Shown here one piece after another: positions 5,186 through 24,770 of a DNA stretch of 64,000 bases. The translations under genes were made by a program, and so were the position numbers. The stretch comes from Escherichia coli. Lineage in GTDB: Bacteria; Pseudomonadota; Gammaproteobacteria; Enterobacterales; Enterobacteriaceae. Numbering within the stretch: the stretch's first letter is position 1; every line of letters starts with the position of its first letter. Under the pieces are notes generated by a model. It was given only the letters and a program-made list of their open reading frames with translations, was not told where the DNA came from and searched no databases. Location of the stretch: assembly GCF_044324785.1 (NCBI RefSeq), contig NZ_CP172127.1; one strand, written 5' to 3'.

Positions 5186-5208
5186 GGTAAGGGATATCCT
5201 CCCTTACC
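5186..5208 (+). terminator. Hairpin downstream of sodC (possible intrinsic terminator)
   Basis: GGTAAGGGA-tatcc-TCCCTTACC perfect 9-bp stem just after the sodC stop; weak U-tract. Confidence 0.35.
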
Positions 5209-5306
5209 CTTAATCTTCCCTGGCTGCATGTGCATATCTTTCAGTTACTGTGAGATACCTGTATTACGGTGTCTTTTTAGCTCACAGAAATATCAGACAG
5301 CCCGTT

Positions 5307-5531
5307 TCAGTGTTTTATTACCTTAATCTTTTTACGGCATTCTTCAGCTCTTGCGCATGCTATTTTTTCACCTGTTTCATAACATTGCTGGCAGCCTAAT
5401 CCAAATTTCATCGCCATATCATAACCTTCCCGAAAACCTCGGAACCACGCGTTACGAAGGTATTCATCATATTCCCCGCAGTCAATAATAACCATTTTAT
5501 TTTCATGGGATTTTCCGGTATTCTCACTCAT
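5307..5531 (-). CDS. Hypothetical small cysteine-rich protein (about 74 aa from MSENTGKSHENK)
   Basis: ORF only; internal Met chosen as start; no recognisable family. Confidence 0.25.
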   Translation of the reverse strand: MSENTGKSHENKMVIIDCGEYDEYLRNAWFRGFREGYDMAMKFGLGCQQCYETGEKIACARAEECRKKIKVIKH

Positions 5532-6360
5532 TTTCGATACCTCAATGCTTACAACAGAAAAGTATACTTTTACGAAGTTCGCCTTTGCAGGACTATATAA
5601 AGTTATCACTGGATGCAAGAGCCGGAAATCCTGTATATCAGGATCAACTTTGTAATTCAATAACATATTATCCAGTGAAAAAGTAAGTATATTTAAGCTG
5701 GGGAAGGAGAAGGGGGACTTGATTTGATATTTTCATCAATAATATTATTTTTCCTCCTCCATTATTCATTCAGACCTGGTTCCGGGCGTAATTCCGATTT
5801 CTCTGTTGAAGCGATGCATTTATATTTAAATATTCACCTGTCATTGAATTTTATTTGAAATAGGAGAAAATCTCCTCCTGTACTACAGATAACCCGGAAT
5901 GTTCCTCGAAAGAAAATTCTGGCGCAGAATTCACGCCCGGTTCTGTTCAACATCATGCAGGATAACGATACCGAAACGTTAAACTCTGGCAATTCTCGTG
6001 TTATACACAGGCAGGAGTGATTACTACGGTAAGAATTGCTGAAAAGGGGAGAACACTGAAGGCCTTATTCGCGAAGAATAAAGGAGACATTTCATGTAAA
6101 TTATTATCAGAGATAACCTTCTCCAGGCGCTTTTGTTCGCTTCCTGAATTGCTACCTGATACATATTTACGGGATGCCAGCCTGGTGACTATAACTCCGA
6201 AAAGACCGATTATTGTATTGCGTGCATCCGGCATGTTTACAATGTACGCTGGTATCTAACGGAGTCTGACACAGATGCACGCAGGTGTATATTTTAACGT
6301 AATTATCCGGAAAGAACAGTATATTTTAATGCGGGAGTTGCATGAGCGGTGGATTTGCCC

Positions 6361-7266
6361 CTATATTTCCAGACACCTGTTATCACTTAACCCATTACTG
6401 GCCTGCTGCCGCAGATATTCCCGTGGCGAGCGATAACCCAGTGCACTATGCGGATGCCATTCGTTATAATGCTCGAACGCCTCTGCAAGGTTCTTTGCTG
6501 CCGTTAACCCGTCTGGTTTAGGCATGATACTGATGTAGTCACGCTTTATCGTTTTCACGAAGCTCTCTGCTATGCCGTTACTCTCCGGACTCCGCACCGC
6601 CGTGTTCTTCGGTTCAAGCCCCAACATCCGGGCAAACTGCCGTGTTTCATTAGCCCGGTAGCATGAACCATTATCCGTCAGCCACTCTACTGGAGACGCC
6701 GGAAGCTCGTTGCCGAAGCGGCGTTCCACCGCTCCCAGCATTACGTCCTGTACTGTTTCACTGTCGAAGCCGCCCGTAGTGACTGCCCAGTGCAGTGCCT
6801 CACGGTCACAGCAGTCCAGCGCGAACGTGACTCGCAGTTTTTCTCCGTTATCACAGCGGAACTCGAACCCGTCAGAGCACCATCGTTGATTGCTTTCTTT
6901 CACGGCCACTTTGCCAGTATGTGCCCGTTTCGATGGCGGTACAGCGGTTTTTCGCTCAAGCAACAGCGCATTCTGGCGCATGATCCGGTAAACACGTTTG
7001 GCATTGATCGCAGGCATACCATCAAGTTCGGCCTGTCTGCGAAGCAGCGCCCATACCCGACGATAACCATACGTGGGCAGCTCTCCGATAACATGGTGTA
7101 TACGGAGAAGCACATCCGTATCATCTGAGTGACGGCTGCGGCGACCATCTTTCCAGTCATCGGTTCGTCTGAGAATTACGTGCAACTGCGCACGCGACAC
7201 CCGGAGACAACGGCTGACTAAGCTTACTCCCCATCCCCGGGCAATAAGGGCGCGTGCGCTATCCAC
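6361..7266 (-). CDS. insD: IS2 transposase OrfB (InsD), DDE domain
   Basis: 301-aa ORF matching IS2 InsD; overlaps insC in the -1 frame, typical of IS3-family elements. Confidence 0.9.
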
Positions 7267-7589
7267 TTTTTTGCACGCCCGTATTCAACGGCTTCTTTAA
7301 GGAGTTCATTTTCCATCGTTTTTTTGCCGAGCAGGCGCTGGAGTTCTTTAATCTGCTTCATGGCAGCAGCAAGTTCAGAGGCAGGAACGACCTGCTCTCC
7401 TGCGGCCACAGCAGTAAGACTTCCCTCCTGGTATTGCTTGCGCCAGAGAAATAACTGGCTGGCTGCCACACCGTGTTGCCGGGCAACAAGGGAGACCGTC
7501 ATTCCCGGTTCAAAACTCTGCTGAACAATAGCGATCTTTTCCTGTGTAGTACGCCGTCTGCGTTTCTCCGGTCCTAAGACATCAATCAT
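7224..7589 (-). CDS. insC: IS2 transposase OrfA (InsC)
   Basis: [56 protein letters not shown]... matches IS2 InsC. Confidence 0.9.
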
Positions 7590-7681
7590 CTGCTCTCCAA
7601 TGACTAGTCTAAAAACTAGTATTAAGACTATCACTTATTTAAGTGATATTGGTTGTCTGGAGATTCAGGGGGCCAGTCTAA

Positions 7682-8499
<818 letters not shown>

Positions 8500-8745
8500 T
8501 AATTACACTGTGGGTTGACGCCGGAAGAATCAGAGAACAGATACCGTTCTTACTGTAAAACGTGGCTAATATTAATTGAGCACTGCAGTGTTCAGAGCAC
8601 AAAGAAGAAAAAAGATGTGTGCGAATGCCTGTAATGTGTTAAAAGAATGTTCCGCGTTTCCGGTACGCTTTTCGTAACTAACAATGCAGGGTGACGTAAC
8701 GCTGGTTGTGCCGGAAACGCGTCCCTCCCCCTATCTTTCCTGTTT

Positions 8746-8765
8746 GGATTTGCCCCTATATTTCT
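8746..8765 (+). repeat. Solo IS2 terminal-repeat fragment
   Basis: TGGATTTGCCCCTATATTTC is identical to the first 20 nt of the IS2 end at 6350; the sequence diverges afterwards. Confidence 0.5.
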
Positions 8766-9108
8766 GGATTATCCGACAAAACCGGCGTGAAGTATTACTC
8801 TCGTCGCCCAGCACCATAAGGATAACGCCCATAAAATCATGAAACTTTTCTTCCAGATTGGATACAATCAGGCCGAAACGGTGATGAATATTATCCAAAT
8901 CTGATGGTTCGTAGCGTTTTCAGCCCCCAGATTCTGAGTTGCCTGTAGGGATGATTTCAATTCCCGATTTGTCTATCGCATAGAGAAAAAGAATTTCATT
9001 TCTGTTCACCAGAACCCATGTAACCCACTCCAATTCGTTATTTATCTCACTGATTGCCCTTCATTTATCTCATTGATGCACCGAAAGGTAAAACTGCCAT
9101 CCGGTGCA

Positions 9109-10038
9109 TCACGCTCGATGCATCAAATCCTGATAAATCCCCGTCAGTATTCCTTGTAAGCTAAATTCTCTTTTTATCCACTGAGTGACTTGACCGCTTG
9201 CCGAATGCCTGGTTGCCAACAGCATTCGTGAATCCTGACGTGGGTTGCGGATCTGCCGTGTCACCAGCAATGACTTTTCCATCGCTTCACGCACCATATA
9301 GTCTGGCAGAAAACCGATTCCCTCCCCCAGGATCTGGCACTGAAGCTTAGTATTAAAGTCGGGAACCAGAATCGACTCTTGCCCGTGTAACAGCCAGCCG
9401 ACTTTTTTGTTTATAGTGTTTGCAGTGTCTTCCACCATGATGTTCGGGTACAGACGTAACTGACTCTCAGAAATGGGCTCAGGAATAAACGCCAGCGGAT
9501 GAGCCGGAGAAATCGCGAACAACCAACGAATCATGCCGATTTCAATGTAATCAATTCCACCACCGTCCAGTAACGTATCGGGCGCGCCAATGGCGATATC
9601 AGCCTGGTTATTAATGAGTGAATCCCAGACGCCATTATACACCTCTGTAGTAATAGCTATCTGGCAGGTTGGAAAGTGTTCCCTGAGCACTTGCAGAAGC
9701 CGAGCTGTATGCTGAGGGGTATACAACAGTTGATTAATACAAATGCGCACCCGGGATTTAATTCCCTGAGCGATGGCATCAACTCTACGTATGATGGAGT
9801 GGTAATCGTTGAGCAGGTCAGTTGCTTTGCAAAAAAGGTAGTGCCCGGGCTCGGTCAGCTCAATGCTACGGGTAGTTCGGGTAAAAAGCACCACGTCAAG
9901 CCCCATTTCCATACGCTTGATAGTGTAACTAATTGCCGATGTGGTTAAGCCCAGTTCCTTCGCCGCCTTGCTGAAACTTCTATAGCGGGCAGCCATAGTA
10001 AATGCCAGTAAGTTTTCTTCCGTAAATATTGAATTCAT
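9109..10038 (-). CDS. LysR-family transcriptional regulator (YahB-like), divergent from the downstream cluster
   Basis: N-terminal HTH MNSIFTEENLLAFTMAARYRSFSKAAKELGLTTSAISYTIKRME; start set at the Met that gives a LysR-type N-terminus (ORF track extends to 10167). Confidence 0.8.
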   Translation of the reverse strand: MNSIFTEENLLAFTMAARYRSFSKAAKELGLTTSAISYTIKRMEMGLDVVLFTRTTRSIELTEPGHYLFCKATDLLNDYHSIIRRVDAIAQGIKSRVRICINQLLYTPQHTARLLQVLREHFPTCQIAITTEVYNGVWDSLINNQADIAIGAPDTLLDGGGIDYIEIGMIRWLFAISPAHPLAFIPEPISESQLRLYPNIMVEDTANTINKKVGWLLHGQESILVPDFNTKLQCQILGEGIGFLPDYMVREAMEKSLLVTRQIRNPRQDSRMLLATRHSASGQVTQWIKREFSLQGILTGIYQDLMHRA

Positions 10039-10424
10039 CTTTCTTTCCTCTGGCGACAATACACATACACAACATGATGATTGTTGAATGTATTTGTAAT
10101 TCTTATAACCGGCAATCAGTTTTGAAAAAATTAACACCGTATTTACATTTAATTTGAAGGAAATCACACATCTGAATTTTAATTACAGGCAGCTATCCGT
10201 GCTGCAGACCACCTTTATTTATATGACTGCGGATTAATGGCTAAAATATCCCAGCTATAATAGAAATATTGCACTATATCACACTCTCTTATTATTGTTA
10301 ATTTTGTTTCAATAATTCATGGTCTAATGATGAGTAAATTTTAAATGGATGGTGCTCTATGCATTCTGTTGCTATTCTTGGCTTGTTATATTTGTAAAAT
10401 CTTAAAAAGAGCAGGAGATCGATT

Positions 10425-11030
10425 ATGTCCAATAAAGAACTCATTACAGAATTTCTGCTGGCGGCAGAACAAGGTAATGCCGATGGATTAAAATCATGCC
10501 TTGATAAAAAGGTTGATATTAATGCGACTAACCGCGAGGGGCGTACTGCAATTATTATTGCCAGTCTGAATAAACATTATGACTGCGTTTCTTTATTGAT
10601 TTCCGCAGGTGCTGATATTAATAAACAAGATCAAACTTGTTTTAATCCCTTCCTGATTGGCTGCCTGAATAATGATTTAACACTGTTGCGTACGGTATTA
10701 CCGGCTAACCCCGACCTTAATTGCCTAACCCGTTTTGGCGGTGTTGGTATTACACCTGCCTGCGAAAAAGGCCATGTCGAGATTGTACGTGAATTGCTGA
10801 TGCGTACTGATATCAATGTCAACCATACTAATTTTGTTGGCTGGACGCCGCTCCTAGAGGCCATCGTGCTGAATGACGGCGGTGAAAAGCAGCAGGAGAT
10901 CGTCAAACTGTTGCTTGAGCATGGCGCAAACCCGCACATGACGGATAAATACGGTAAAACCCCGCTGGAGCTGGCGCGAGAAAAAGGCTACCACAAAATT
11001 GCCGAGTTGCTGATTTCGGCTGGAGCCTGA
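10425..11030 (+). CDS. Ankyrin-repeat protein (YahD-like)
   Basis: Repeated ANK-type motifs (GRTAIIIASLNKHYDCVSLLISAGADIN; GWTPLLEAIVLN...LLLEHGANPH; GKTPLELAREKGYHKIAELLISAGA). Confidence 0.8.
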   Translation: MSNKELITEFLLAAEQGNADGLKSCLDKKVDINATNREGRTAIIIASLNKHYDCVSLLISAGADINKQDQTCFNPFLIGCLNNDLTLLRTVLPANPDLNCLTRFGGVGITPACEKGHVEIVRELLMRTDINVNHTNFVGWTPLLEAIVLNDGGEKQQEIVKLLLEHGANPHMTDKYGKTPLELAREKGYHKIAELLISAGA

Positions 11031-11115
11031 CAACAGGAGCACGATTATCGCTATATTATCACGGCAATCTTTTCGGGCACTAACCGCAGACTGCGCGTTT
11101 CTCACTTTTCGGGGA

Positions 11116-11964
11116 ATGGGCCAGGTTGAACAGGTTTTTTCCCATGCGGTAAATCTGTTAATACCTGAACAGCAGCGACTGCTGACGTTACTGAGTGAGG
11201 ATTGTGATAACGCACCTAACAGTTGTCGTTTAGCACTGACACATTATGAAGACCTTTTTCACCCCGGTGAACAGGTCAATTTTAGCGGGTCTGGAATAAC
11301 TGTTGGAAATGATAAATGGATAGAAATAACCGGTTGTCAGATGTGGCGAATACCACGGTGGACATCTGATTCAGCAAGCCTTGCCAAAGTCGGCTGGCAG
11401 CATTGGGAAGAGTTTATCCGCCAACAACTAAGAAGCAACGACACATTATTTCTGTACCAGGGTGACAATCCATTTTATCAGGAAATTTCTCGCCAATTAC
11501 TCAACCGCCGAAAAAATTTGCTGAAGGCGTTGTGTACAGGAGAAAACATCACTGCGGCAGTCAACCAGTTAATTGGTCTTGGAATAGGGCTGACGCCATC
11601 ATCGGATGATTATTTAGTAGGTTTAAGCACTATTTTATTTATTCAAGGACATCCACTAAGGAAGTATAGATACGATTTCTTAGCAGCATTACAACTTGCA
11701 GGAAATAACATAACGCTTCTCAGCAAAATAACGTTAGAGGAAGCATTTAATCAGCGTTATCGGGAAAGAGTCGGACGGCTACTGAACCAATTTATTACTG
11801 AGCCACAACCCATTTCTACGCAATATGTTACTGACATAAAAAATATAGGCTCAAGTTCTGGATGCGACATGCTGTATGGCATGGCGGATGCCTGCGCCCT
11901 GAGCCACAGGTCCGGAGGTAATTATGTCAATCAGGATAGTTGTAAAAAAAAACACGTATTTTGA
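11116..11964 (+). CDS. Conserved hypothetical protein (YahE-like, DUF2877-type)
   Basis: 282-aa ORF; position between the ankyrin and FdrA-like genes mirrors the K-12 yahD-yahE-yahF order as recalled. Confidence 0.55.
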   Translation: MGQVEQVFSHAVNLLIPEQQRLLTLLSEDCDNAPNSCRLALTHYEDLFHPGEQVNFSGSGITVGNDKWIEITGCQMWRIPRWTSDSASLAKVGWQHWEEFIRQQLRSNDTLFLYQGDNPFYQEISRQLLNRRKNLLKALCTGENITAAVNQLIGLGIGLTPSSDDYLVGLSTILFIQGHPLRKYRYDFLAALQLAGNNITLLSKITLEEAFNQRYRERVGRLLNQFITEPQPISTQYVTDIKNIGSSSGCDMLYGMADACALSHRSGGNYVNQDSCKKKHVF

Positions 11965-13471
11965 TTCTGTTTCACTGATGTCTATCTCCACGCGCGCAAA
12001 TAAGCTTGATGGAGTTGAGCAGGCATTTGTTGCTATGGCGACAGAGATGAATAAGGGGGTGCTGAAGAATCTCGGTCTGCTGACCCCTGAGCTGGAAGAG
12101 GCGAAAAGTGGCGATCTGATGATTGTCATTAAAGGTACCAGCGAGGAGGCGAACGAGCGGACGCTAATAGCGATTGATGAGCTGTTTGCGCATAAAGAAC
12201 AGGGAGGCCAGCACGAAGCACGCTATGCCACGATTGCCAGTGCGAAGAAGCATGCTCCAGAGAGTAATCTGGCGGTGATCTCTGTCAATGGCCTGTTTGC
12301 TGCTCGTGAAGCTCGTCAGGCACTACAAAATAACCTCAATGTTATGCTGTTTTCTGACAACGTCTCTCTTGAGGACGAGCTGGAACTCAAGCATCTGGCA
12401 CATGAAAAAGGGTTGTTGATGATGGGGCCTGATTGTGGAACCGCCATCATTAACGGCGCAGCGTTGTGTTTTGGCAATGCAGTGCGTCGCGGCAACATCG
12501 GAATCATTGGTGCCTCCGGTACGGGTAGCCAGGAGCTGAGCGTACGCATTCACGAATTTGGCGGCGGGATTTCCCAGCTGATTGGGACAGGTGGACGCGA
12601 TATGAGTGAAAAAATTGGCGGCCTGATGATGCTTGACGCGATTAGCATGCTGGAGGCCGATCCACAAACTGAGATCATTACGCTTATATCCAAACCTCCT
12701 GCACCAGCGGTAGCCCGTAAGGTGCTGGAACGTGCGCGCACCTGTCACAAGCCTGTGGTGGTGTGTTTCCTCGGACGTGAGTCCACCCCTGCGGATGAAG
12801 AAGGCCTACAGTTTGCCCGCGGTACTAAAGAGGCTGCCTTGAAAGCGGTACTGTTGACTGGTGTGAAAAAAGAGAGTCTGGATTTGCATCCGCTCAACTG
12901 GCAGCTGATTGAAGAGGTTCGCTCCCGTCTGACTCCACAACAAAAGTATATCCGTGGCCTGTTCTGTGGTGGCACGTTATGCGATGAAGCGATGTTTACT
13001 GCCATGGAAAAACTCTCGGATGTGTATAGCAATATTCACCCGAATCCGGCGTTCCGCCTTACAGATCTCAACCGTAGCGTGGCGCATACCTTCCTCGATT
13101 TCGGCGATGATTATTTTACCAACGGCAAACCACATCCGATGATCGATCCCACCAATCGCATTACCCGGCTCTTGCAGGAAGCACAGGATCCTGAAGTTGG
13201 CGTGATCGTGATGGACTTCATTCTTGGATTTGGATCACATGAAGATCCGGTTGGAGTGATGCTGGATACAATTGTTGAAGCCAAAGAAATTGCTGCCGCA
13301 GACGGTCGCCCGCTTGAGATCCTCGGCTATGTGCTGGGAACCGACCTTGATACACCGTCGCTGAAAAAACAGTGTCAGATGTTGACCGATGCCGGGGTTA
13401 TTTGGGCAAGCAGTAGCACCAACACCGGATTACTGGCACGTGAATTTATATTTAAAGGGGAGGAAGGCTGA
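11924..13471 (+). CDS. FdrA/YahF-like protein (CoA-binding, succinyl-CoA synthetase alpha-like fold)
   Basis: N-terminus MSIRIVVKKNTYFDSVSLMSIS resembles the FdrA family; 515 aa; glycine-rich loops GASGTGSQE. Confidence 0.75.
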   Translation: MSIRIVVKKNTYFDSVSLMSISTRANKLDGVEQAFVAMATEMNKGVLKNLGLLTPELEEAKSGDLMIVIKGTSEEANERTLIAIDELFAHKEQGGQHEARYATIASAKKHAPESNLAVISVNGLFAAREARQALQNNLNVMLFSDNVSLEDELELKHLAHEKGLLMMGPDCGTAIINGAALCFGNAVRRGNIGIIGASGTGSQELSVRIHEFGGGISQLIGTGGRDMSEKIGGLMMLDAISMLEADPQTEIITLISKPPAPAVARKVLERARTCHKPVVVCFLGRESTPADEEGLQFARGTKEAALKAVLLTGVKKESLDLHPLNWQLIEEVRSRLTPQQKYIRGLFCGGTLCDEAMFTAMEKLSDVYSNIHPNPAFRLTDLNRSVAHTFLDFGDDYFTNGKPHPMIDPTNRITRLLQEAQDPEVGVIVMDFILGFGSHEDPVGVMLDTIVEAKEIAAADGRPLEILGYVLGTDLDTPSLKKQCQMLTDAGVIWASSSTNTGLLAREFIFKGEEG

Positions 13472-14889
13472 TGAGCCAGACACTGTTTAATCAGCCGCTG
13501 AACGTTATTAATGTCGGTATCGAAATGTTCAGCGATGACATGAAAAAGCAGAATGTACCGGTAACCCAACTTGACTGGACACCGCCAGGCCAAGGAAACA
13601 TACAAGTGGTAACGGCACTGGACGACATTGCCGCTTCACCACTGGCAGACAAAATTGCAGCTGCTAATCAGCTGGCGCTGGAACGCATTATCCAGTCGCA
13701 TCCTGTGCTAATTGGCTATGATCAGGCGATCAACGTCGTGCCGGGTATGACCCGTAACACTATCCTTCACGCCGGGCCGCCAATCCACTGGGAAAAAATG
13801 TGCGGCGCAATGAAGGGCGCAGTAACCGGGGCTCTGGTATTTGAAGGACTGGCGAAAGATCTGGATGATGCCGCCGAACTAGCTGCTTCAGGTGAAATCA
13901 TCTTCTCTCCGTGCCACGAACATGACTGTGTCGGCTCAATGGCGGGTGTCACGTCTGCATCGATGTTTATGCACATCGTCGAGAACAAAACCTATGGAAA
14001 CCGCGCATATACCAATATGAGCGAGCAGATGGCAAAGATCCTGCGTATGGGCGCTAACGACCAGAGCGTTATAGAGCGTCTTAACTGGATGCGAGATGTA
14101 CTGGGACCTATGTTGCGCGATGCTATGAAGCTGGCGGGCGAAATCGATCTGCACTTGATGTTAGCGCAGGCGCTGCATATGGGCGATGAGTGCCATAACC
14201 GCAACAACGCCGGGACGGCGCTGCTGATTCAGACGCTGACGCCGTGGATTATTCAGACTGGCTACCCTGTTGAGCAGCAGCGTGAGGTGTTCGAGTTTGT
14301 CCTCAGTAGTGATTACTTCTCAGGACCAACATGGATGGCAATGTGTAAAGCCGCAATGGACGCTGCGCACGGCATTGAATACAGCACCGTGGTGACAACG
14401 ATGGCACGCAATGGTGTTGAGTTCGGTCTTCGTATTAGCGGTTTGCCGGGCAAGTGGTTTACCGGTCCGGCGCAGCAGGTGATTGGGCCGATGTTTGCGG
14501 GCTATAAGCTAGAGGATTCCGGACGTGATATCGGTGATAGTGCAATTACCGAAACCTACGGCGTTGGCGGTTTCGCTATGGCGACGGCACCAGCTATTGT
14601 GTCACTGGTGGGCGGAACAGTTGAGGAAGCTATTGATTTCTCACGTAAAATGAGAGAAATCACTCTCGGAGAAAACCCCAACGTCACCATTCCCCTGCTT
14701 GGTTTTATGGGCGTACCGACCGCTATCGATATTACGCGTGTAGGCAGTACAGGCATTCTGCCGGTAATTAACACAGCCATTGCGCACAAAGACGCAGGGA
14801 TCGGCATGATCGGCGCAGGAATTGTTCACCCGCCGTTCACTTGTTTTGAAAAGGCGATCCTCAACTGGCGTGACCACTACTGCCAATAA
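13471..14889 (+). CDS. DUF1116-type protein (YahG/YlbE-like)
   Basis: 472-aa ORF whose ATG overlaps the FdrA-like stop (ATGA); family assignment from operon context and recalled similarity. Confidence 0.65.
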   Translation: MSQTLFNQPLNVINVGIEMFSDDMKKQNVPVTQLDWTPPGQGNIQVVTALDDIAASPLADKIAAANQLALERIIQSHPVLIGYDQAINVVPGMTRNTILHAGPPIHWEKMCGAMKGAVTGALVFEGLAKDLDDAAELAASGEIIFSPCHEHDCVGSMAGVTSASMFMHIVENKTYGNRAYTNMSEQMAKILRMGANDQSVIERLNWMRDVLGPMLRDAMKLAGEIDLHLMLAQALHMGDECHNRNNAGTALLIQTLTPWIIQTGYPVEQQREVFEFVLSSDYFSGPTWMAMCKAAMDAAHGIEYSTVVTTMARNGVEFGLRISGLPGKWFTGPAQQVIGPMFAGYKLEDSGRDIGDSAITETYGVGGFAMATAPAIVSLVGGTVEEAIDFSRKMREITLGENPNVTIPLLGFMGVPTAIDITRVGSTGILPVINTAIAHKDAGIGMIGAGIVHPPFTCFEKAILNWRDHYCQ

Positions 14890-15001
14890 CAATAACCGGG
14901 GCTAACGCAGTTAGCCCCACAGTAGCGGAAAACGTTGTTTACCTTCAGGGCTGGGCGATCTCCATGATCGCAAACGATGCTTAACCTGTTAAGGAGATTC
15001 C

Positions 15002-16552
15002 ATGAACAGCATAAAACTAGAATGGAAACGTGGTGACTGGGCGGCTTACTTTGGACTGATGACCAACAATCTGACTAACCTGCTGACAATGATGGGTCTG
15101 CTAATTTTTGTCGTCGGAATCCCTACTGAAATTGTCTATGGACGCATTGCGCCTGCCTTTGGTCTTGCAGTGCTGGCGGCCAGTGTCTGCTACTCCTGGT
15201 TTGGTCTACAGATGGTGAAGAAAACCGGTCGTAGCGATGTAACGGCGCTGCCGTCTGGACCGAGCGCACCCTCAATCTTTACCGTGACATTCCTGGTGCT
15301 GATGCCGGTTTATCAGCAAACCAAAGATGCCAACTTTGCTATTCAGATAGGATTGGTGTGGTGCTTTGTCGAAGCGTTGATCCTGGTCGGTGGCTCCTTC
15401 CTGGGTGAGACTATCCGCAAGATGATCCCGCGTACAGTGCTGCTTTCTTGTCTGTCCGGACTGGGGTTATTACTGCTGGCAATGAACCCGATGCTGCAAG
15501 CGTTCGAAGCGCCGACAGTTTCTTTCATCGTCCTGTTATTGATCTTCATTAACTGGTTCGGTAAGAAGCCGATTTTTCCCCATATTCCTACCGGTTTGCT
15601 GTTGCTGATTGCTGGTACGTCCCTAGCGTGGATATCCGGTTTACAAAGCCCGGAAGACATTAAAGCGTCGATGTCTTCCTTCGGCTTCAACCCGCCGGAA
15701 ATTCATGTAAGGAGCTTCCTGCAAGGTTTGCCGCACGCTCTGCCATATCTGGCTTCTGCAGTTCCTTTGGGCCTGGCTAACTACATTTTTGACCTCGAGA
15801 ACATTGAAAGTGCGCACGCGGCTGGTGATGAATACAACACCCGTAAGGTCATGATGGCGAACGGCTTTGCCTCCATGCTCGGTTGCATGCTGGGTAATCC
15901 GTTCCCGGTAACCGTATATGTTGGGCATGCAGGCTGGAAAGCTATGGGCGCTAGTATCTGCTATACCCTCGCATCAGGCATCACTATGTTTCTGGTGCCA
16001 TTGTTTGGGTTGGGCGCGTTTATGCTCGCCATTATTCCCATGACTGCTATAGTGCCAATTCTGGTTTTTATCGGTGTGGTAACCGCCAATCAGGTGGTGC
16101 GAGAAACTCCTAAAGTCGAGGTTCCCGTCATTTTCATCTGTCTGTTCCCATGGGTCGCCAACTGGGCATTGACCATCGTTAACAGCGTGATGGGCGCAGC
16201 CGGAACATCCGCTGAGAAACTTGGTAGCGACCTGTTGCACAGCAAAGGCGTCTATTACGATGGACTGATGCATCTGGGAAGCGGTGCACCGCTGGCCAGC
16301 ATGCTGTGGGGATGCATTGCTATCTTTGCCATTATGAATAAGCCGCTGCGCGGGGCGATAGCTGCATCCTTTGGAGCACTGTTATCGCTGTTTGGCGTGA
16401 TTCACTCCCCAGCGGTTGGCTTTGCGGAAGGCAGCTCGATTGTGTTTGTTGTGGCCTACCTGATGATGCTTGCTATGTTTGCCCTCAAGCATGTTATTGA
16501 TAGCCGTGAAACAGTGGCTGCGTCTGAGCAGGAAGAGACTAAAACGACCTGA
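15002..16552 (+). CDS. Polytopic membrane transporter (putative nucleobase/ureide-type permease), not part of the K-12 yah cluster
   Basis: 516 aa, at least 10 hydrophobic segments; RBS AAGGAGA before the ATG; family unresolved without a search. Confidence 0.65.
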   Translation: MNSIKLEWKRGDWAAYFGLMTNNLTNLLTMMGLLIFVVGIPTEIVYGRIAPAFGLAVLAASVCYSWFGLQMVKKTGRSDVTALPSGPSAPSIFTVTFLVLMPVYQQTKDANFAIQIGLVWCFVEALILVGGSFLGETIRKMIPRTVLLSCLSGLGLLLLAMNPMLQAFEAPTVSFIVLLLIFINWFGKKPIFPHIPTGLLLLIAGTSLAWISGLQSPEDIKASMSSFGFNPPEIHVRSFLQGLPHALPYLASAVPLGLANYIFDLENIESAHAAGDEYNTRKVMMANGFASMLGCMLGNPFPVTVYVGHAGWKAMGASICYTLASGITMFLVPLFGLGAFMLAIIPMTAIVPILVFIGVVTANQVVRETPKVEVPVIFICLFPWVANWALTIVNSVMGAAGTSAEKLGSDLLHSKGVYYDGLMHLGSGAPLASMLWGCIAIFAIMNKPLRGAIAASFGALLSLFGVIHSPAVGFAEGSSIVFVVAYLMMLAMFALKHVIDSRETVAASEQEETKTT

Positions 16553-16578
16553 ATAGCCTGCAAACGGAAGATAATTCT

Positions 16579-17541
16579 ATGAAAGAACTTGTGGTCGTTG
16601 CCATTGGTGGCAACAGCATTATCAAAGATAACGCCAGCCAGTCGATTGAGCATCAGGCGGAGGCGGTGAAGGCCGTCGCCGATACGGTTCTGGAAATGCT
16701 GGCTTCCGATTACGACATTGTGCTGACCCACGGCAACGGGCCGCAGGTCGGTCTGGATTTACGCCGCGCGGAGATAGCCCACGAGCGCGAAGGGCTACCC
16801 TTAACGCCGCTGGCGAACTGTGTGGCGGATACGCAAGGCGGCATTGGCTATCTGATCCAGCAGGCGCTGAACAACCGGCTGGCGCCTCTCGGCGAGAAAA
16901 AAGCCGTCACCGTGGTGACTCAGGTGGAAGTGGATAAAAACGATCCGGGGTTTGTCCATCCCACCAAGCCCATCGGTGCATTCTTTAGTGAAAACCAGCG
17001 TGATGAACTACAAAAGGCAAACCCTGACTGGCGTTTTGTTGAAGATGCCGGACGGGGCTATCGCCGCGTGGTCGCCTCGCCGGAACCGAAACGTATTGTC
17101 GAAGCACCTGCCATTAAGACTCTGATCCAGCAAGGCTTTGTGGTGATTGGCGCGGGCGGCGGTGGCATTCCGGTGGTGCGTACTGACGCAGGGGATTACC
17201 AAAGCGTGGACGCGGTTATCGACAAAGATCTCTCTAGCGCGCTACTGGCTCGCGAAATTCACGCCGACATTCTGGTGATCACCACCGGCGTGGAAAAAGT
17301 GAGTATTCATTTTGGGAAACCCAACCAGCATGCACTGGATACAGTGGATGTCCTAACGATGGCCCGTTACATGCAGGAGGGTCACTTCCCGCCTGGGAGT
17401 ATGTTACCGAAGATTCTTGCCAGTCTGGAGTTCCTGGAACGTGGAGGTAAAAGAGTGATTATCACCACGCCTGAATGCCTGTCCGCGGCACTGCGTGGCG
17501 AAACAGGCACCCATATTATCCACTCCCAAGAGGAGACGTAA
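16579..17541 (+). CDS. Carbamate kinase-like protein (YahI/ArcC-like)
   Basis: MKELVVVAIGGNSI...VLTHGNGPQVG matches the carbamate kinase / amino-acid kinase family. Confidence 0.8.
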   Translation: MKELVVVAIGGNSIIKDNASQSIEHQAEAVKAVADTVLEMLASDYDIVLTHGNGPQVGLDLRRAEIAHEREGLPLTPLANCVADTQGGIGYLIQQALNNRLAPLGEKKAVTVVTQVEVDKNDPGFVHPTKPIGAFFSENQRDELQKANPDWRFVEDAGRGYRRVVASPEPKRIVEAPAIKTLIQQGFVVIGAGGGGIPVVRTDAGDYQSVDAVIDKDLSSALLAREIHADILVITTGVEKVSIHFGKPNQHALDTVDVLTMARYMQEGHFPPGSMLPKILASLEFLERGGKRVIITTPECLSAALRGETGTHIIHSQEET

Positions 17542-18639
17542 ATTAAGGAAAGCGACCGCCGCCGTGAATTTTTAATGTTCATTGCAGATTATCGTGGGCT
17601 GGAAATGATAACGGTTGGGGAGTTATTGTTTAGTTGCTAAAACAGAACGATAACCAACCCCAACCGTTCTCAATTTCGAATACTATCTTTTCCATTTATC
17701 TCTGGATAGGCTTTGACGTCGTCCCTACTGAGTAAAATCCCCCTCATCATCCACCTAAAACCGATTGAAAACGGTCATTACTCTTGTGGCAAACAGGCTA
17801 AAGCCGTTCACGATGCTTCACTTCGCACCTTATCGTAATGAACAATACTGGTATTTCCAGTTCAGTTACGCCTACCCGTCTACCGCATTCTTTGCCCTAA
17901 CTGCGGCATAGTTCGGGATTATATCAGCTGGCTAAAGCCTTATGCTCATCAGACCACATGACTCATTGAGCATGTTGAGGCGTTACTCAAAATCTTGCCG
18001 ATTAAACATATTTCGTAATTTCTTACCCTGCACTAACATATCATCAATACTATCGACAAACGTCAGTTGCAAATAGAGGTCACAGGGTCTGATTGATGTA
18101 CTGTCAAGGCCGGGTCATGAAAGAGTTTGCCCTGTTCAAAGCTCATCGTTACGCACCGTCGTAGCCGATGCGGATACTCATCAATCCTCTGGATAGGTGA
18201 GGTGCGTAGTAGAGAAGCTCGGTCGTTTTTCGTTAATCTGAATCAGTACTGTCAACATATTCAAGTCGTTAATATGGATATGAATACCTCCTTTGACCTA
18301 GAGGTACAGATGCACTACCCCCCAAGCTGTCAACGACGGATGAAAAGTGGCTCTTCCGCAACCTGGATGGAGATTTTCATGCCAGTGGACTCATGACCCT
18401 CTGCCTGAGTAGTTCAAATCCGGCTCGACCATACATCTGGCCTTTCAGCATTTTTAGCCAATTTACATGACTTTCGACCACCCCCCATTATTCCAGCGAC
18501 TGCTGATTGCCTCACATATAGCCGCAGCATCAGCTACCATCCTTGCAGCCACGCGCCGAAGTTACCACTTTCTCGTTGCTCTTTTAACCACTCCCTCCAT
18601 GGGTCCAGAAGTCCTCGCTCTGGAGGCCGGGTTGACATT

Positions 18640-19539
18640 TCAGGGAATGTTCCTGAACACACCCAGAGACTGACTGTCACACGTGATAAGCCTGTAATAC
18701 GGGATAAGCCTGTAATACGGGATAAGCCTGTAATACGGGATATTTCCCCTGAACCCACATCCCTTGTTATGTAGTGCCATAACCTCTGTCCAACGCTGAT
18801 GCCGTTTTTGGCGGGTTTGCTGTTTAAGGCGTTCCGGACGACGGAGCGATGCTACAGGCACAGACAGTACTGGCTTAGGTGATTTCTTTGGTGACAACCC
18901 ACTGGCAACAAGACGTATCAGAGGCATCTGTCTGTACATCATTCGTTCAGGCGCATCGCCAATATTTTTTAGCAGGTGCCATCGATCAGCTATCTGTCTG
19001 GCCTGAGGTGCACCTTCACGTGCTGCTGTCGCATAGACTCCGCCACGGTCACGTGAGACAACCTGTATTTCCGGATATTTTCTGAACCAGGTCGCCAGCG
19101 TACTCTGATCGCAACCGGGAAGCAGGACGAGGGGACGGTGAGTATCAAGATTGACAATTAACGTGCCGTAATGGTGGCCCCGATGCCACGCCCACTCATC
19201 AATACCGACATGAGGCGCGCCCGACTGTTTCGTCTCCGGGGTATTAATAACCCTGCGAAGAAGAGTATCAGCACTGCAACGGAGCCCCACTGCCGTTGCT
19301 GCCTGTTTCCCGGCCTCACCTCCGGCTATTAATCCCAGTTGATGTTGTAAATTTTGTAACACCTGTGAAGAATGCTGGGAGTGAACCGGCGAAGGGGGCA
19401 AGCGACCCGGCAAAAATTTTACGTGAACAAGCCGGGTTACGGCAGTACCAGTGGCGGACGGAAAATACAAGCCATAGCGTCTGCCCTGAGCAGGGTAGAT
19501 GCTGTATCCGGCGCCGACGATAACTATGAACAGAGTCAC
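18640..19539 (-). pseudogene. ISL3-family transposase fragment, 5'-truncated at the IS1 insertion, with repeat-containing C-terminus
   Basis: ...HVGIDEWAWHRGHHYGTLIVNLDTHRPLVLLPGCDQSTLATWFRKYPEIQVVSRDRGGVYATAAREGAPQARQIADRWHLLKNIGDA resembles the ISL3 transposase core; the N-terminal part is missing. Confidence 0.55.
18685..18738 (+). repeat. 18-bp perfect tandem repeat x3 (GATAAGCCTGTAATACGG)
   Basis: Three identical 18-bp units, read in the minus-strand ORF as (IPYYRL)x3. Confidence 0.9.
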
Positions 19540-19716
19540 TACGCTTAAAGCATTCAGGACTTGTGCTGTTTTGCGTTTTCCGTGGAGATGGAGGGTTATA
19601 CCGTCAGAGCTAATAATTTGTCGACTGCATCTCCATCCGCAAGGTAACTGTAGAAGTGTCTGGTGATGCTGCCAACTTACTGATTTAGTGTATGATGGTG
19701 TTTTTGAGGTGCTCCA

Positions 19717-19992
19717 GTGGCTTCTGTTTCTATCAGCTGTCCCTCCTGTTCAGCTACTGACGGGGTGGTGCGTAACGGCAAAAGCACCGCCGGACATCAG
19801 CGCTATCTCTGCTCTCACTGCCGTAAAACATGGCAACTGCAGTTCACTTACACCGCTTCTCAACCCGGTACGCACCAGAAAATCATTGATATGGCCATGA
19901 ATGGCGTTGGATGCCGGGCAACTGCCCGCATTATGGGCGTTGGCCTCAACACGATTTTACGTCACTTAAAAAACTCAGGCCGCAGTCGGTAA
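19717..19992 (+). CDS. insA: IS1 InsA
   Basis: [43 protein letters not shown]... matches IS1 InsA. Confidence 0.9.
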
Positions 19993-20414
19993 CCTCGCGC
20001 ATACAGCCGGGCAGTGACGTCATCGTCTGCGCGGAAATGGACGAACAGTGGGGCTATGTCGGGGCTAAATCGCGCCAGCGCTGGCTGTTTTACGCGTATG
20101 ACAGTCTCCGGAAGACGGTTGTTGCGCACGTATTCGGTGAACGCACTATGGCGACGCTGGGGCGTCTTATGAGCCTGCTGTCACCCTTTGACGTGGTGAT
20201 ATGGATGACGGATGGCTGGCCGCTGTATGAATCCCGCCTGAAGGGAAAGCTGCACGTAATCAGCAAGCGATATACGCAGCGAATTGAGCGGCATAACCTG
20301 AATCTGAGGCAGCACCTGGCACGGCTGGGACGGAAGTCGCTGTCGTTTTCAAAATCGGTGGAGCTGCATGACAAAGTCATCAGGCATTATCTGAACATAA
20401 AACACTATCAATAA
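19911..20414 (+). CDS. insB: IS1 InsB frame (expressed as InsAB' by -1 frameshifting)
   Basis: ORF carrying the IS1 InsB sequence ...[47 protein letters not shown]...; coordinates are the open frame, not a defined start. Confidence 0.8.
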
Positions 20415-20429
20415 GTTGGAGTCATTACC

Positions 20430-20578
20430 GTGTTCCCGACAGACGACTCGGTGAAAAAAGTGGTGTGGCTGGCAATCCAGTCTGCGTCCCAGAAATGGAC
20501 GATGCCGTTGAAGGACTGGCGAATGGCAATGAGCCGCTTTATTATCGAGTTCGGTGACCGCCTGGACGGTCACTTCTG
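20430..20578 (+). pseudogene. C-terminal fragment of an IS256/Mutator-family transposase, cut at the IS1 boundary
   Basis: VFPTDDSVKKVVWLAIQSASQKWTMPLKDWRMAMSRFIIEFGDRLDGHF followed by a stop; resembles IS256-family transposase C-termini as recalled; begins right at the IS1 end. Confidence 0.5.
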
Positions 20579-20848
20579 AGAAAAGGCATTTACACAGAAT
20601 CCTAAACAGGCTCATTCAGACAGCTTTTTATTTCACTATGGCTATCCCAGAACAATCAGTACAAATAATAAAAGACATATCACAGCAACACTCCACACTG
20701 ACAGCGCAAAAATAAATGCCGCCTTTGTTATCTTCATATACAAGCAACCTGTCCTGATAATCACCAGCTCATGTTTTATTCTTAACCATTCGTCACAAAT
20801 ACAACAAAAAATAACAGCAGCAGCACCGATATCACAATATAAGATACA

Positions 20849-21304
20849 TTATTCAACACCTGAATCCCCCGCCGCTTCTCTCCCCTTTATAAAACGCCCC
20901 TTCCGGAATCCAGACCGCTGCAGTGCACGACGAAGATGACCGTATACCGTCTTGTCATTCTGCCCCGTCTCTTCTGTAATCTCCGCAATACTTAAACCTC
21001 TGTAATACCGGTTCAGTAACGCTCTGCGCTCTTCCAGCGTCAACACACCTCCGGCCGCTCTCAGATTCAGCATCGACTTATTCAGAATACAGCAGGCCTC
21101 TCCGGTAAAAAGAATACGAACAATATCTGTATACTCATCATCACAGAATACAAAATAATATCTGAATGACCTGCCTGACTGCACCCTTCTTCTGTCTGAT
21201 ATGGCATCTTCTATATATCTGATTCGACTGCTTACGGTTCCAAATACCTCTCGCAGGGCTTTTTCAAAATAAATATCTCTCGTCGCCAGGATTATATCCA
21301 GCAT
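20849..21304 (-). CDS. Putative HTH transcriptional regulator (LuxR/sigma-70 region-4-like C-terminus)
   Basis: C-terminal LTLEERRALLNRYYRGLSIAEITEETGQNDKTVYGHLRRALQR resembles a GerE/region-4 HTH; lies immediately upstream of the adhesin gene on the same strand. Confidence 0.5.
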   Translation of the reverse strand: MLDIILATRDIYFEKALREVFGTVSSRIRYIEDAISDRRRVQSGRSFRYYFVFCDDEYTDIVRILFTGEACCILNKSMLNLRAAGGVLTLEERRALLNRYYRGLSIAEITEETGQNDKTVYGHLRRALQRSGFRKGRFIKGREAAGDSGVE

Positions 21305-21365
21305 CTCTGTACCTCATTATATCCCGGGGGACTCCCCCCGGGACAGATATCTAAATCCTGACCTG

Positions 21366-22631
21366 TCAGAACTCAAAATTCACACCAGCATTCCACGATG
21401 CGGATGACCCACCTGCAGCAACTGCAACTTTTCCTGCCACATTCTCTGTGAAACGGTAGCCCACGCCCACCGCAATGGCCTGCTCATCACGGTAACCACC
21501 AACGGCTGCTGTCGCGTTAAATTTTCCAACACTGTATGGCTGGAAAAGACCGGCCAGTGCCGCGCTCTGGGCTGCACTCTCCCTTAACTCCTTCCGGTTC
21601 TCTTTAATCTGCTCCTGCATATTATTCATTCTCTCTGTCGCCATCTTCTGCCAGGCTTCCGTCAAATCCAGACGATGACTGTTATTCCTTATCGCTGCTG
21701 TATTTGAGGCTATTGCTGCATCCGTCTGCGCCCTGTTCTTCACAAGCACATCGCTGAGATGTTCTGCCTGGCTTTTCGCTTCTTTACGGGCATCCCGTAC
21801 ACTTTTATCTGTATAAGCCCGGGAAACCTGAACTGTTTCATCCGCTTTTTCTTTTATTTCATCCTGAAGAGCAAGAGAAGATGCATCCGTATACGCCACC
21901 GCTGCCGATGTGCCTGCAATAATATCCCTGCTGAGTTCATCACGTACTGCTGTAACCTGACTGTCAGTATGAGCACGGGCATCTCTGTATACACCGCCTA
22001 TCTCACCGCGCAGGGCATCCCCCGACACCCGTACAGCATCTGCAATGGCGTTGTCCATCTGTCCTTTTGTGGCCGCATCACTATCCTTAACACCATCTGA
22101 AACATTTATAATCCGGCGGGTTTCCGGTGCTCCTTTGACACTCTCTCCATATCCCTCAGGCCCGGCACCAACAGATACCACGTTATTTTCTCCCGACACC
22201 TGTGAGCCATGGCCCAGAGCTACAGAACTGGTAGAATCCTGCACAGATGAAAACGCACCAATTGCCGAGCTCTGACGAGAAGAAATAAGTGACGCTTCTT
22301 TTCCTGCAACAGTCCCCCATTCAGAGTCAGCAATAAGTGCATCATGCCCCAGACTCACACTTCCCGGAGAGTTCACAACACCAGAATTATTCCCCAAAAG
22401 CACAGTCCTGTTTGAGTCTAATAAAAAAGAATCATCACCAATCAACCATACATTTCTTACTTTATCAATCGAACGGCCAGCTACTGATTCTCCAACAAGA
22501 AAGCTATTATCTTCGCCAGGTTCAATCGGTCCGATTAAAATATCCTGAGCCTGAGCCTGAGCCGAGAGCAGCAGGGCCACACTCACTGCCAGCGCGCTTT
22601 TCTTTAAAAAAGCATCACGTCTTTTAAGCAT
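21366..22631 (-). CDS. Trimeric autotransporter adhesin (YadA-like C-terminal anchor; Eib/Saa-like)
   Basis: Signal peptide [28 protein letters not shown]; repetitive head, long coiled-coil stalk; C-terminal anchor ...[35 protein letters not shown]; RBS AGGAGA before the ATG at 22631. Confidence 0.7.
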
Positions 22632-23118
22632 TCTGTTATTCTCCTGTATTATTACTTCACCAGCCAGAACGGTAGTGCGGAGCAAAAATACAGTGATAAG
22701 AATCCTCTTTTATTAATTTAATAATGCCAGGAATATTATTGTGTATAATATGCGCCCTCAATTTAAGCAGCAGAAAAGCAATGACGAGAAAATCATTAAA
22801 ATACATAAAGATAAAACATCATAACTATAATTATAATAAGCGCGCTTATTTTAGCATCTGAACATTTAAAGTACTGCTATCACAAAACAATAAAAATCCT
22901 GGGTAATATCTCTGATGATTGAATGAGAAATTCACGATGTCTGGTGAGAATTCTGTTCAAAACGAGGAATGCAGACATACATGTGGCAGGCATGGACTTC
23001 CACCGATTTAACTTTTTTCCTTCCTTGTATTTACACATCACACATTTTGCGCTACAAAAATTTCACGTGGCACGCACCACGTGATCCGTAGAAAAGCCTC
23101 TTGTTACGAATTTCGTAA

Positions 23119-24007: not shown

Positions 24008-24770
24008 GGTAATGACTCCAATTAGTTGAATTAGGAGTATAATAGCCACTTTTAAGGTTCTTTCATGGTCACAGTTAACCTTCATTGCTCCTGTTGCCAG
24101 TCCGTTCAGGTTTACCGTCACGGGAAGAACCCAAAGGACATGATCGATTTCGCTGCCGTGACTGTCATCGAGTGCTTCAGCTCACTTACCGTTACGAGGC
24201 CCGTAAACCGGGAGTTAAAGAGCAAATCACTGAAATGGCTTTCAACGGTGCCGGAGTTCGCGATACTGCCCGTACGCTGAAAATCGGCATTAATACTGTC
24301 ATCCGGACTTTAAAAAACTCTCGCCACGAAGAATAACGTCATACCCGGTCGCTCATGCTGATATGGCACTCATCTGCGAACTTGATGAGCAATGGAGTTT
24401 TGTCGGCAGTAAAGCGCGACAGCACTGGCTCTGGTACACGTACAACACGAAAACTGGTGGCGTTCTGGCCTACACTTTTGGCCTACGGACTGATTAAACC
24501 TGTCGTGAATTGCTGGCGCTGCTTGCCCTTTTACCATCGGTATGTTGACCACTGACGAATGGGGTAGTTACACCAGAGAGTTACCGAAGGAGAAGCATCT
24601 GACTGGTAAGATTTTTACTCAGCGCATTGAGCGCAACATCTACCTCTGAGAACCCGAATCAAACGTCTGGCCCGCAGAACTATCTGTTTCACGCGCTCTG
24701 TAGAACTTCATGAAAAAGTCATCGGTGCCTTTATCGAAAAATATATGTTCTACTAATTGGAGTCACCACC
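24008..24770 (+). mobile_element. Degenerate IS1-family element (divergent from canonical IS1, disrupted reading frames)
   Basis: IS1-like termini GGTAATGACTCCAA ... TTGGAGTCACCACC; InsA-like ...RFRCRDCHRVLQLTYRYEARKPGVKEQITEMAFNGAGVRDTARTLKIGINTVIRTLKN and InsB-like fragments split across frames. Confidence 0.7.

What the first reader, a model, noticed from the sequence alone, without database searches (positions are those of the whole stretch)
19540..20578. IS1 without target duplication sitting between two unrelated transposase fragments, contrasted with IS2 carrying an intact AGCGG duplication
IS2 (6350-7680) is flanked by perfect 5-bp direct repeats, indicating a simple recent insertion. 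IS1 (19662-20429) has different 9-bp flanks and is bordered on the left by a 5'-truncated ISL3-type transposase gene (opposite strand) and on the right by only the last 49 codons of an IS256-type transposase. This points to IS1-mediated deletion or recombination that removed intervening DNA.
Basis: seen in the sequence. Interest (0 to 1): 0.35.

Follow-up and report, generated by a model that had tools for sequence, protein, structure and literature searches.

The report
IS1 scar of an island deletion
An intact IS1 insertion sequence sits where about 10 kb of an E. coli genomic island was deleted; this is an ordinary, well-understood kind of IS-driven rearrangement, although the same IS1 junction also forms one end of a composite transposon found on ColV virulence plasmids.

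Summary
IS1 occupies 19662-20429 (768 bp, intact) and its 9-bp flanks differ (GAAGTGTCT / GTGTTCCCG). IS2 occupies 6350-7680 and has a perfect AGCGG duplication.

The left neighbour is an ISEc38-like ISL3 element cut 120 bp from its end. Its transposase gene loses only about 25 nt and was already frameshifted. The right neighbour is the last ~180 bp of IS1414, 100% identical to intact copies.

Related islands without IS1 run straight through both break points. Between them they carry either 9.7 kb of genes or a ~2.2 kb block of IS debris. None of this DNA is elsewhere in the window.

The ISL3|IS1 junction occurs in 156 of 5,426 complete E. coli genomes and in 88 plasmids. The IS1|IS1414 junction occurs in only about 24 chromosomes. 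Neither reciprocal junction was found.

On ColV plasmids, window 6170-19661 lies between inverted IS1 copies with a 9-bp duplication (TCCTGCATG), which is a composite transposon.

The best reading is that IS1 inserted into the ISL3 element and then made an adjacent deletion of about 10.8 kb. Recombination between two IS1 copies is not excluded. The phenomenon is textbook, so interest is low.

The parts
19662..20429 (+). Intact IS1 (IS1A-type), 768 bp. IRL is 19662-19684 and IRR is 20407-20429. insA is 19717-19992, the insB' frame is 19911-20414, and the A6C frameshift site is 19968-19974.
   Evidence: related genomes annotate it as an IS1A family transposase with a programmed frameshift
19653..19661 (.). 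Left 9-bp flank GAAGTGTCT. It is probably the surviving copy of the original IS1 target duplication, and it lies inside the ISL3 element.
   Evidence: the same junction occurs in 156 genomes and 88 plasmids
20430..20438 (.). Right 9-bp flank GTGTTCCCG, the deletion end point inside the IS1414 transposase gene. It does not repeat the left flank.
18328..19661 (-). ISEc38-like ISL3-family element lacking its terminal 120 bp (one inverted repeat and the first ~25 nt of the transposase ORF). The transposase gene is a frameshifted pseudogene.
   Evidence: the full element is 1,417 bp in L010
18681..18742 (.). 18-bp tandem repeat (3.4 copies) inside the ISL3 pseudogene. Copy number differs among relatives.
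20430..20613 (+). 3' remnant of IS1414 (IS256 family): the last 49 codons of the transposase plus the right terminal repeat. The element proper ends near 20609. The astA gene is not included.
6350..7680 (-). IS2 (1331 bp), a simple insertion flanked by the AGCGG target duplication at 6345-6349 and 7681-7685.
6170..19661 (.). Island segment (IS3 remnant, LysR, ankyrin, AllH-like, FdrA, YlbE, permease, carbamate kinase, truncated ISL3). Without IS2, this segment is the cargo of an IS1-flanked composite transposon on ColV plasmids.
20849..22685 (-). Right-hand retained genes: a sigma-70 region-4-like HTH protein (20849-21304) and a YadA-like trimeric autotransporter (21366-22685). Their 3' side faces the IS remnants.

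Best explanation
IS1 first inserted into the transposase-start end of a decayed ISEc38-like ISL3 element in a chromosomal genomic island. Its left junction (...GAAGTGTCT|IS1) is the remaining half of that insertion.

Later the right end of the same IS1 promoted an adjacent deletion, that is, an intramolecular transposition into a target inside an IS1414 copy lying to its right. The deletion removed four things:
- the right copy of the 9-bp duplication;
- the last 120 bp of the ISL3 element;
- about 9.7 kb of island genes (MFS transporter, LacI-type regulator, nucleoside hydrolase, MgtC, TRAP and FhuD remnants, PIG-L deacetylase, glycosyltransferase, acetyltransferase, YaiO);
- about 1,135 bp of IS1414, including astA.

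The total is roughly 10.8 kb. IS1 stayed intact at the joint.

In another lineage, the same ISL3|IS1 junction paired with a second, inverted IS1 at window position 6170. The resulting 13.7-kb composite transposon moved into a serine acetyltransferase gene of ColV/IncF plasmids.

Shown directly: the missing duplication, the exact break points, the DNA present in relatives, how the junctions are distributed, and the plasmid transposon with its duplication. Inferred: the order of events, the transposase-mediated (rather than RecA-mediated) mechanism, and the presence of a full IS1414 at this exact site in the ancestor.
For: - **No duplication at exactly mapped IS1 ends**.
- **Homology to IS1-free islands stops exactly at the IS1 ends.** It ends at 19661 and resumes at about 20610-20614.
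- **The intervening DNA exists in relatives.** It is 9,706 bp in L010 and L011, with the gene content listed. It is absent from the whole 64-kb window.
- **Synteny is kept on both sides.** Carbamate kinase lies to the left and the HTH/YadA genes, transposase and transketolase remnants to the right, so the event was internal to the island.
- **The left junction is far more widespread than the right one.** It occurs in 161 records from 156 genomes and 88 PLSDB plasmids, with a different right flank on plasmids. The right junction occurs in about 24 chromosomes and no plasmid. The left junction is therefore the older, retained one.
- **Neither reciprocal junction was found** in 5,426 complete genomes. 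These are IS1-right-end + GAAGTGTCT + rest of ISL3 and IS1414...GTGTTCCCG + IS1-left-end.
- **The plasmid structure is a composite transposon.** Inverted IS1 copies have a 9-bp duplication TCCTGCATG, and the two gene halves rejoin into one ORF.
- **Published work.** Missing duplications at IS copies are usually explained by adjacent deletion or IS-IS recombination. In the long-term evolution experiment, all 14 IS-associated deletions were traced to insertion followed by adjacent deletion (PMC11708052).
Against: - No sampled genome holds the proposed intermediates. None has IS1 in the ISL3 element with both duplication copies, and none has a full IS1414 at exactly this site next to the HTH gene. 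The full-length IS1414 copies beside this module sit in other positions or contexts.
- The sequence product is identical to what homologous recombination between two directly repeated IS1 copies would give, so the mechanism cannot be read from the sequence.
- The deletion size depends on which IS1-free island type was ancestral: about 10.8 kb for the L010 type, less for the L001 type.
Confidence: 0.62

Rival explanations
1. Homologous (RecA-dependent) recombination took place between two IS1 copies in direct orientation. One was a simple insertion in the ISL3 element and the other a simple insertion in IS1414. The recombination deleted everything between them and left one hybrid IS1 carrying one flank from each insertion.
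For: It gives exactly the observed product. PMC11708052 names this mechanism as a common cause of missing duplications. In strain SL124 an IS1 abuts a 9%-diverged IS1414-like remnant at the very same nucleotide, so this position may be a preferred IS1 target, which makes a prior simple insertion there plausible.
Against: Neither partner junction exists in 5,426 complete E. coli genomes. The SL124 IS1 also lacks a duplication, so it is not a simple insertion either. The window holds no second IS1A copy.
Confidence: 0.25
2. The junction was made by exchange between replicons. A ColV plasmid carrying the ISL3|IS1 junction integrated into, or recombined with, a chromosome carrying an IS1 next to the IS1414/HTH/YadA module.
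For: The left junction and 12.2 kb to its left are 99.2-99.7% identical to ColV plasmids. Several genomes carry both the plasmid copy and the chromosomal copy (strain 135 and TUM1886).
Against: The chromosome continues leftward past 6170 without the inverted IS1 that bounds the plasmid copy. Both flanks are syntenic with IS1-free chromosomal islands. No plasmid backbone DNA is present. This route would still need an IS1 in IS1414, which was not found.
Confidence: 0.05
3. The event was a single step. IS1 was captured at a double-strand break while the deletion formed, with no prior insertion, as the DNA-break hypothesis of PMC11708052 proposes.
For: There is no duplication and no sampled intermediate.
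Against: The same ISL3|IS1 junction exists independently of this deletion, with a different right flank, as the inner end of a transposed composite element. IS1 was therefore resident at that position, either before this deletion or apart from it.
Confidence: 0.05
4. IS1 is a simple insertion whose duplication decayed by point mutation, or the IS boundaries were placed wrongly.
For: None beyond the prior possibility.
Against: The boundaries are exact: 768 bp with canonical inverted repeats. The two flanks belong to two different IS elements that lie 2.2 to 9.7 kb apart in IS1-free relatives.
Confidence: 0.01

Closest known systems
IS1-promoted adjacent deletions (classic gal/chl deletions starting at IS1, Reif and Saedler 1975, cited from my own knowledge; general treatment in PMC11708052)
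   Same: The IS is retained intact at the joint. One original junction is conserved, the target duplication is lost, and kilobases of neighbouring DNA present in relatives are missing.
   Different: Nothing mechanistic differs. This is a natural instance inside an IS-rich genomic island, and it ends inside another IS (IS1414) rather than in a selectable gene.
IS1-flanked composite transposons such as Tn9 (cat) and Tn1681 (heat-stable toxin), cited from my own knowledge
   Same: On ColV plasmids the segment 6170-19661 lies between two IS1 copies with a 9-bp target duplication.
   Different: The cargo is a 12.2-kb metabolic cluster (FdrA, YlbE, carbamate kinase, permease) plus a dead ISL3 element. 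The arms are inverted. The window itself has only one arm and is not the transposon.
IS1414, the astA/EAST1-carrying IS256-family element (McVeigh et al. 2000, via PMC12585946)
   Same: The remnant is 100% identical to the 3' end of prototype IS1414.
   Different: Only about 180 of about 1,315 bp remain, and astA is lost. PMC12585946 reports that decayed IS1414 copies are common, so this one is typical.

Membership tests
IS1 (IS1A-type) | Element of about 768 bp with imperfect terminal inverted repeats of about 23 bp | tested here: met
   19662-20429 is 768 bp; the inverted repeats are 23 nt and 78% complementary
IS1 (IS1A-type) | insA and insB' frames joined by -1 frameshifting at an A6C motif, with InsA and IS1 DDE domains | tested here: met
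   Zn_ribbon_InsA 1.3e-21, HTH_Tnp_IS1 4.7e-31, DDE_Tnp_IS1 1.1e-76; A6C at 19968-19974
IS1 (IS1A-type) | A 9-bp (sometimes 8-bp) direct target duplication at a simple insertion | tested here: not met
   The flanks are GAAGTGTCT and GTGTTCCCG. This does not bear on whether the element is an IS1. It shows that the copy is not a simple insertion.
IS-mediated adjacent deletion | Relatives without the IS carry continuous DNA across both break points, with extra DNA between them | tested here: met
   9,706 bp in L010 and L011, about 2.2 kb in L001, L003 and L004
IS-mediated adjacent deletion | One IS junction predates the deletion and is shared with lineages that have a different opposite flank | tested here: met
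   The left junction is in 156 genomes and 88 plasmids; the right junction is in about 24 chromosomes
IS-mediated adjacent deletion | Dependence on the transposase rather than on RecA | not testable with these tools
   This needs genetics. The absence of reciprocal junctions is only indirect support.
ISL3 family (ISEc38-like) | DDE_Tnp_ISL3 transposase and terminal inverted repeats | tested here: met
   DDE_Tnp_ISL3 4e-17. One inverted repeat is at 18328-18371; its partner is present only in IS1-free relatives. Identity to annotated ISEc38 is 97.3% over 262 nt.
IS256 family (IS1414) | Sequence identity to the IS1414 transposase and terminal repeat | tested here: met
   184 of 184 nt identical to annotated IS1414; 49 of 49 aa identical to the C-terminus of a 402-aa transposase. 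The 49-aa fragment alone gives no Pfam hit.
IS2 (IS3 family) | A 1331-bp element with a 5-bp target duplication and an empty site elsewhere | tested here: met
   6350-7680 with AGCGG on both sides; empty site in plasmids
IS1 composite transposon | Two IS1 arms around the cargo, with a 9-bp duplication of the target at the outer ends | tested here: met
   Met in pAMSC2 and pAPEC-O2-ColV: TCCTGCATG on both sides, and the target ORF is restored when the element is removed. Not met in the window, which has no IS1 at 6170.

The most novel reading that the evidence does not exclude
The break point inside IS1414 may be a preferred IS1 target rather than a random end point. In strain SL124 an IS1B that also lacks a duplication is joined to a 9%-diverged IS1414-like remnant at exactly the same nucleotide, in an unrelated island next to selC. 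If that is real, IS1 repeatedly cuts IS1414-type elements at one site and removes astA each time. Separately, the IS1 in this window is the chromosomal counterpart of one arm of the composite transposon that carried a chromosomal metabolic cluster onto ColV virulence plasmids.
Probability: 0.35. Interest if true: 0.3.

Novelty: already known. Interest (0 to 1): 0.13.

Why it matters
The practical value lies in annotation and island history.

- It shows that this island variant lost about nine genes and one astA-bearing IS1414 in a single IS1-associated event.
- It dates the IS1/ISL3 junction as older than the IS1/IS1414 junction.
- It ties a 12-kb block of ColV plasmids to a chromosomal island through an IS1 composite transposon.

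None of this changes what is known about IS1. IS copies without target duplications that mark deletions are expected.

Tried and rejected
- **Intermediate with both duplication copies in the ISL3 element.** The query was the IS1 right end + GAAGTGTCT + the rest of ISL3. No record reached 80% coverage.
- **Simple IS1 insertion in IS1414 at GTGTTCCCG.** The only two records with 80% coverage or more were two-piece matches with hundreds of extra bases, so they are not the junction.
- **Full IS1414 at exactly the window's site.** Five genomes have IS1414 next to the HTH/YadA module. They are in other contexts (a prophage, a second island copy), and their IS ends differ by 46 to 130 bp or are aberrant.
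- **L001-type islands as the direct ancestor.** I took them as such at first and then rejected this, because their IS256-family element is only about 72% identical to the window remnant over the compared stretch.
- **Pfam on the 49-aa remnant.** No hit.
- **A second IS1A in the window as a recombination partner.** None found.
- **The same IS2 insertion in other genomes.** None found in one piece.
- **Literature on the ColV composite element.** Nothing specific turned up.
- **Target duplication of the ISL3 element itself.** The flanks showed nothing obvious.

Full report
**1. The observation**

IS1 occupies window 19662-20429. It is exactly 768 bp, beginning GGTGATGCTGCCAACTTACTGAT and ending ATCAATAAGTTGGAGTCATTACC, and the repeat finder recovers these as 23-nt inverted arms. 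Its insA frame (19717-19992) and insB' frame (to 20414) are open. The A6C slippery motif lies at 19968-19974. Pfam gives Zn_ribbon_InsA, HTH_Tnp_IS1 and DDE_Tnp_IS1 with E-values from 1e-21 to 1e-76.

The nine bases outside the ends are GAAGTGTCT on the left and GTGTTCCCG on the right, so there is no target duplication.

IS2 occupies 6350-7680 (1331 bp) and has AGCGG on both sides.

**2. The two neighbours**

*Left.* The minus-strand ORF 18640-19539 carries a DDE_Tnp_ISL3 domain (E = 4e-17). Comparison with IS1-free relatives defines a 1,417-bp element with roughly 40-bp terminal inverted repeats. One repeat is at window 18328-18371; the other is present only in the relatives. IS1 cuts this element 120 bp from its transposase-start end.
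- NCBI's annotation of IS1-free genomes starts the transposase gene 25 nt beyond the break point, so the gene is 5'-truncated only marginally.
- The gene is annotated as frameshifted in every genome examined, with or without IS1.
- The nearest named element is ISEc38, 97.3% identical over the 262 nt tested.

*Right.* Window 20430-20613 is 100% identical to the 3' end of elements annotated as IS1414, an IS256-family element. Its 49 codons equal the C-terminus of a 402-aa IS1414 transposase.
- An intact IS1414 is about 1,315 bp.
- It carries astA (EAST1) 345 bp upstream of the break point (background in PMC12585946).
- The window contains no astA.

**3. What lies between the remnants elsewhere**

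Two kinds of IS1-free island were found. In both, identity to the window stops exactly at 19661 and resumes at about 20610-20614.

- *Type A* (strains PK8566, S51, Ch1). The complete ISL3 element is followed by an MFS transporter, a LacI-type regulator, a nucleoside hydrolase, MgtC, TRAP and FhuD remnants, a PIG-L deacetylase, a glycosyltransferase, an acetyltransferase and YaiO. Then come the HTH and YadA-like genes. That is 9,706 bp between the two break points.
- *Type B* (HCM-25C-3, 2020N21-246, P19_598). The ISL3 end is followed by an IS3-family remnant and a different IS256-family element, about 2.2 kb in all.

None of this DNA is elsewhere in the 64-kb window. Synteny outside the break points is preserved on both sides, so the event was an internal deletion.

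On the right flank, type A is the closer relative: 99.6-99.8% identity against 98.5% for type B.

No sampled genome has a full IS1414 at exactly the window's position. Full copies next to the same HTH/YadA module occur in a prophage and in a second island copy, and their ends are placed differently. An ancestor of "type A plus IS1414" is therefore an inference. Under it, the loss is about 9.7 kb plus about 1.1 kb of IS1414, roughly 10.8 kb.

**4. Which junction is older**

| Junction | Where found |
|---|---|
| ISL3\|IS1 (left) | 161 records from 156 of 5,426 complete E. coli genomes |
| ISL3\|IS1 (left) | 88 PLSDB plasmids, including pAPEC-O2-ColV |
| IS1\|IS1414 (right) | about 24 chromosomes |
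| IS1\|IS1414 (right) | no plasmid |
| IS1 right end + GAAGTGTCT + rest of ISL3 (reciprocal) | none |
| IS1414...GTGTTCCCG + IS1 left end (reciprocal) | none |

The left junction is therefore the retained, older one, and the right junction is the derived one.

**5. The plasmid connection**

In pAMSC2 and pAPEC-O2-ColV, window 6170-19661 (without IS2) lies between two inverted IS1 copies. The right-hand copy is the one at the ISL3 junction, and in these plasmids it is itself interrupted by IS100.

The outer flanks carry a perfect 9-bp duplication, TCCTGCATG. Joining them restores one continuous serine-acetyltransferase-like ORF. This is a composite transposon insertion. The inner-left junction occurs in 103 genomes.

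The window has no IS1 at 6170. It is thus a relative of the donor, not the transposon itself. This result shows that IS1 was resident at the ISL3 position independently of the deletion seen in the window.

**6. Mechanism**

The best-supported account has two steps. IS1 inserted into the ISL3 element, and its right end then made an adjacent deletion that ended in IS1414.
- It fits the asymmetric distribution of the two junctions, the lack of reciprocal junctions and the preserved synteny.
- It matches published experience that IS copies without duplications mark adjacent deletions or IS-IS recombination (PMC11708052).

Recombination between two direct IS1 copies would give the same product and cannot be excluded from sequence alone. 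I give it about 0.25. Plasmid-mediated exchange and one-step capture at a break are less likely (section 5). Decay of a duplication is refuted.

**7. A side observation that bears on mechanism**

In strain SL124, an IS1B next to the selC tRNA gene is joined to an IS1414-like remnant at the same nucleotide (IRR|GTGTTTCCGACAG). That remnant is about 9% diverged, and the surrounding island is unrelated. This IS1 also lacks a duplication.

Because the window's remnant is identical to active IS1414, the two events are probably independent. That hints at a preferred IS1 target or end point in this transposase gene. It rests on a single extra case and has not been tested.

**8. Comparison with what is known, and verdict**

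Everything here belongs to known kinds: an IS1 adjacent deletion, an IS1 composite transposon, a decayed IS1414 and a simple IS2 insertion.

The event is ordinary for an IS-rich E. coli island. The consequences are loss of about nine island genes and one astA copy. No regulatory effect is expected, because the IS debris lies between the 3' ends of convergent genes (carbamate kinase ends at 17541; the HTH gene ends at 20849).

Interest is 0.13, and the novelty class is "already known".

Noticed in passing
L017 (NZ_CM194971.1, strain SL124) 4383-5334; compare window 20429/20430: An IS1B next to tRNA-Sec is joined to a ~9%-diverged IS1414-like remnant at exactly the same nucleotide as in the window, and it too has no target duplication. 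This may be a recurrent IS1 target or break point in IS1414-type transposase genes.
   Followed up: partly
window 6170-19661; L002/L013 (pAMSC2) and L016 (pAPEC-O2-ColV): On ColV/IncF plasmids this island segment is the cargo of an inverted-IS1 composite transposon. It is inserted in a serine acetyltransferase gene with the 9-bp duplication TCCTGCATG. The left junction occurs in 88 PLSDB plasmids.
   Followed up: yes
window 20600-20660; L001 ~10115-10235, L008 ~9440-9620, L009 ~9400-9500, L010 ~13340-13480: Four different IS256-family arrangements abut the HTH/YadA-like module: a canonical IS1414 end, an IS1414 with an aberrant end, a different IS256-family element, and a short solo-end remnant. 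In the island copies they fall within about 80 bp of one another. This looks like an insertion hot spot or a site of repeated turnover.
   Followed up: partly
window 18328-18351 versus L002 10453-10475: The terminal repeat of the ISEc38-like ISL3 element (TGTCAACGACGGATGAAAAGTGGC) shares its first ~21 nt with the left end of IS100, an IS21-family element. I have no explanation for this.
   Followed up: no
window 18681-18742: An 18-bp tandem repeat (3.4 copies) lies inside the ISL3 transposase pseudogene. Alignments to relatives break here, which indicates that copy number varies.
   Followed up: partly
window 6350-7680: The IS2 insertion at this site was not found in one piece in any of 5,426 complete E. 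coli genomes, so it appears private to the source strain and very recent. It sits about 100 bp from an old IS3-family remnant.
   Followed up: partly
window 20849-22685; L008 9838-11902: The sigma-r4-like HTH gene plus YadA-like adhesin module also occurs next to prophage tail-fibre genes and in a second island copy within single genomes (TUM1886, TUM9803, GF60). It therefore appears to move or duplicate as a unit, resembling Eib-type adhesin loci (the Eib comparison is from my own knowledge).
   Followed up: no
NZ_CP023142.1 (strain CFSAN061770), 872286-872669 and 4728628-4733005: This genome holds the IS1-deleted junction at one locus. At a second locus it holds the uninterrupted ISL3 end running into the IS3-family remnant. 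It may therefore carry two copies of at least this part of the island.
   Followed up: no
window ~24066-24757 (equivalent to L001 13522-14213): Relatives annotate a frameshifted 'IS1 family transposase' pseudogene here. It has no blastn similarity to the IS1 at 19662, so it is a distant IS1-family relic and not a recombination partner.
   Followed up: partly
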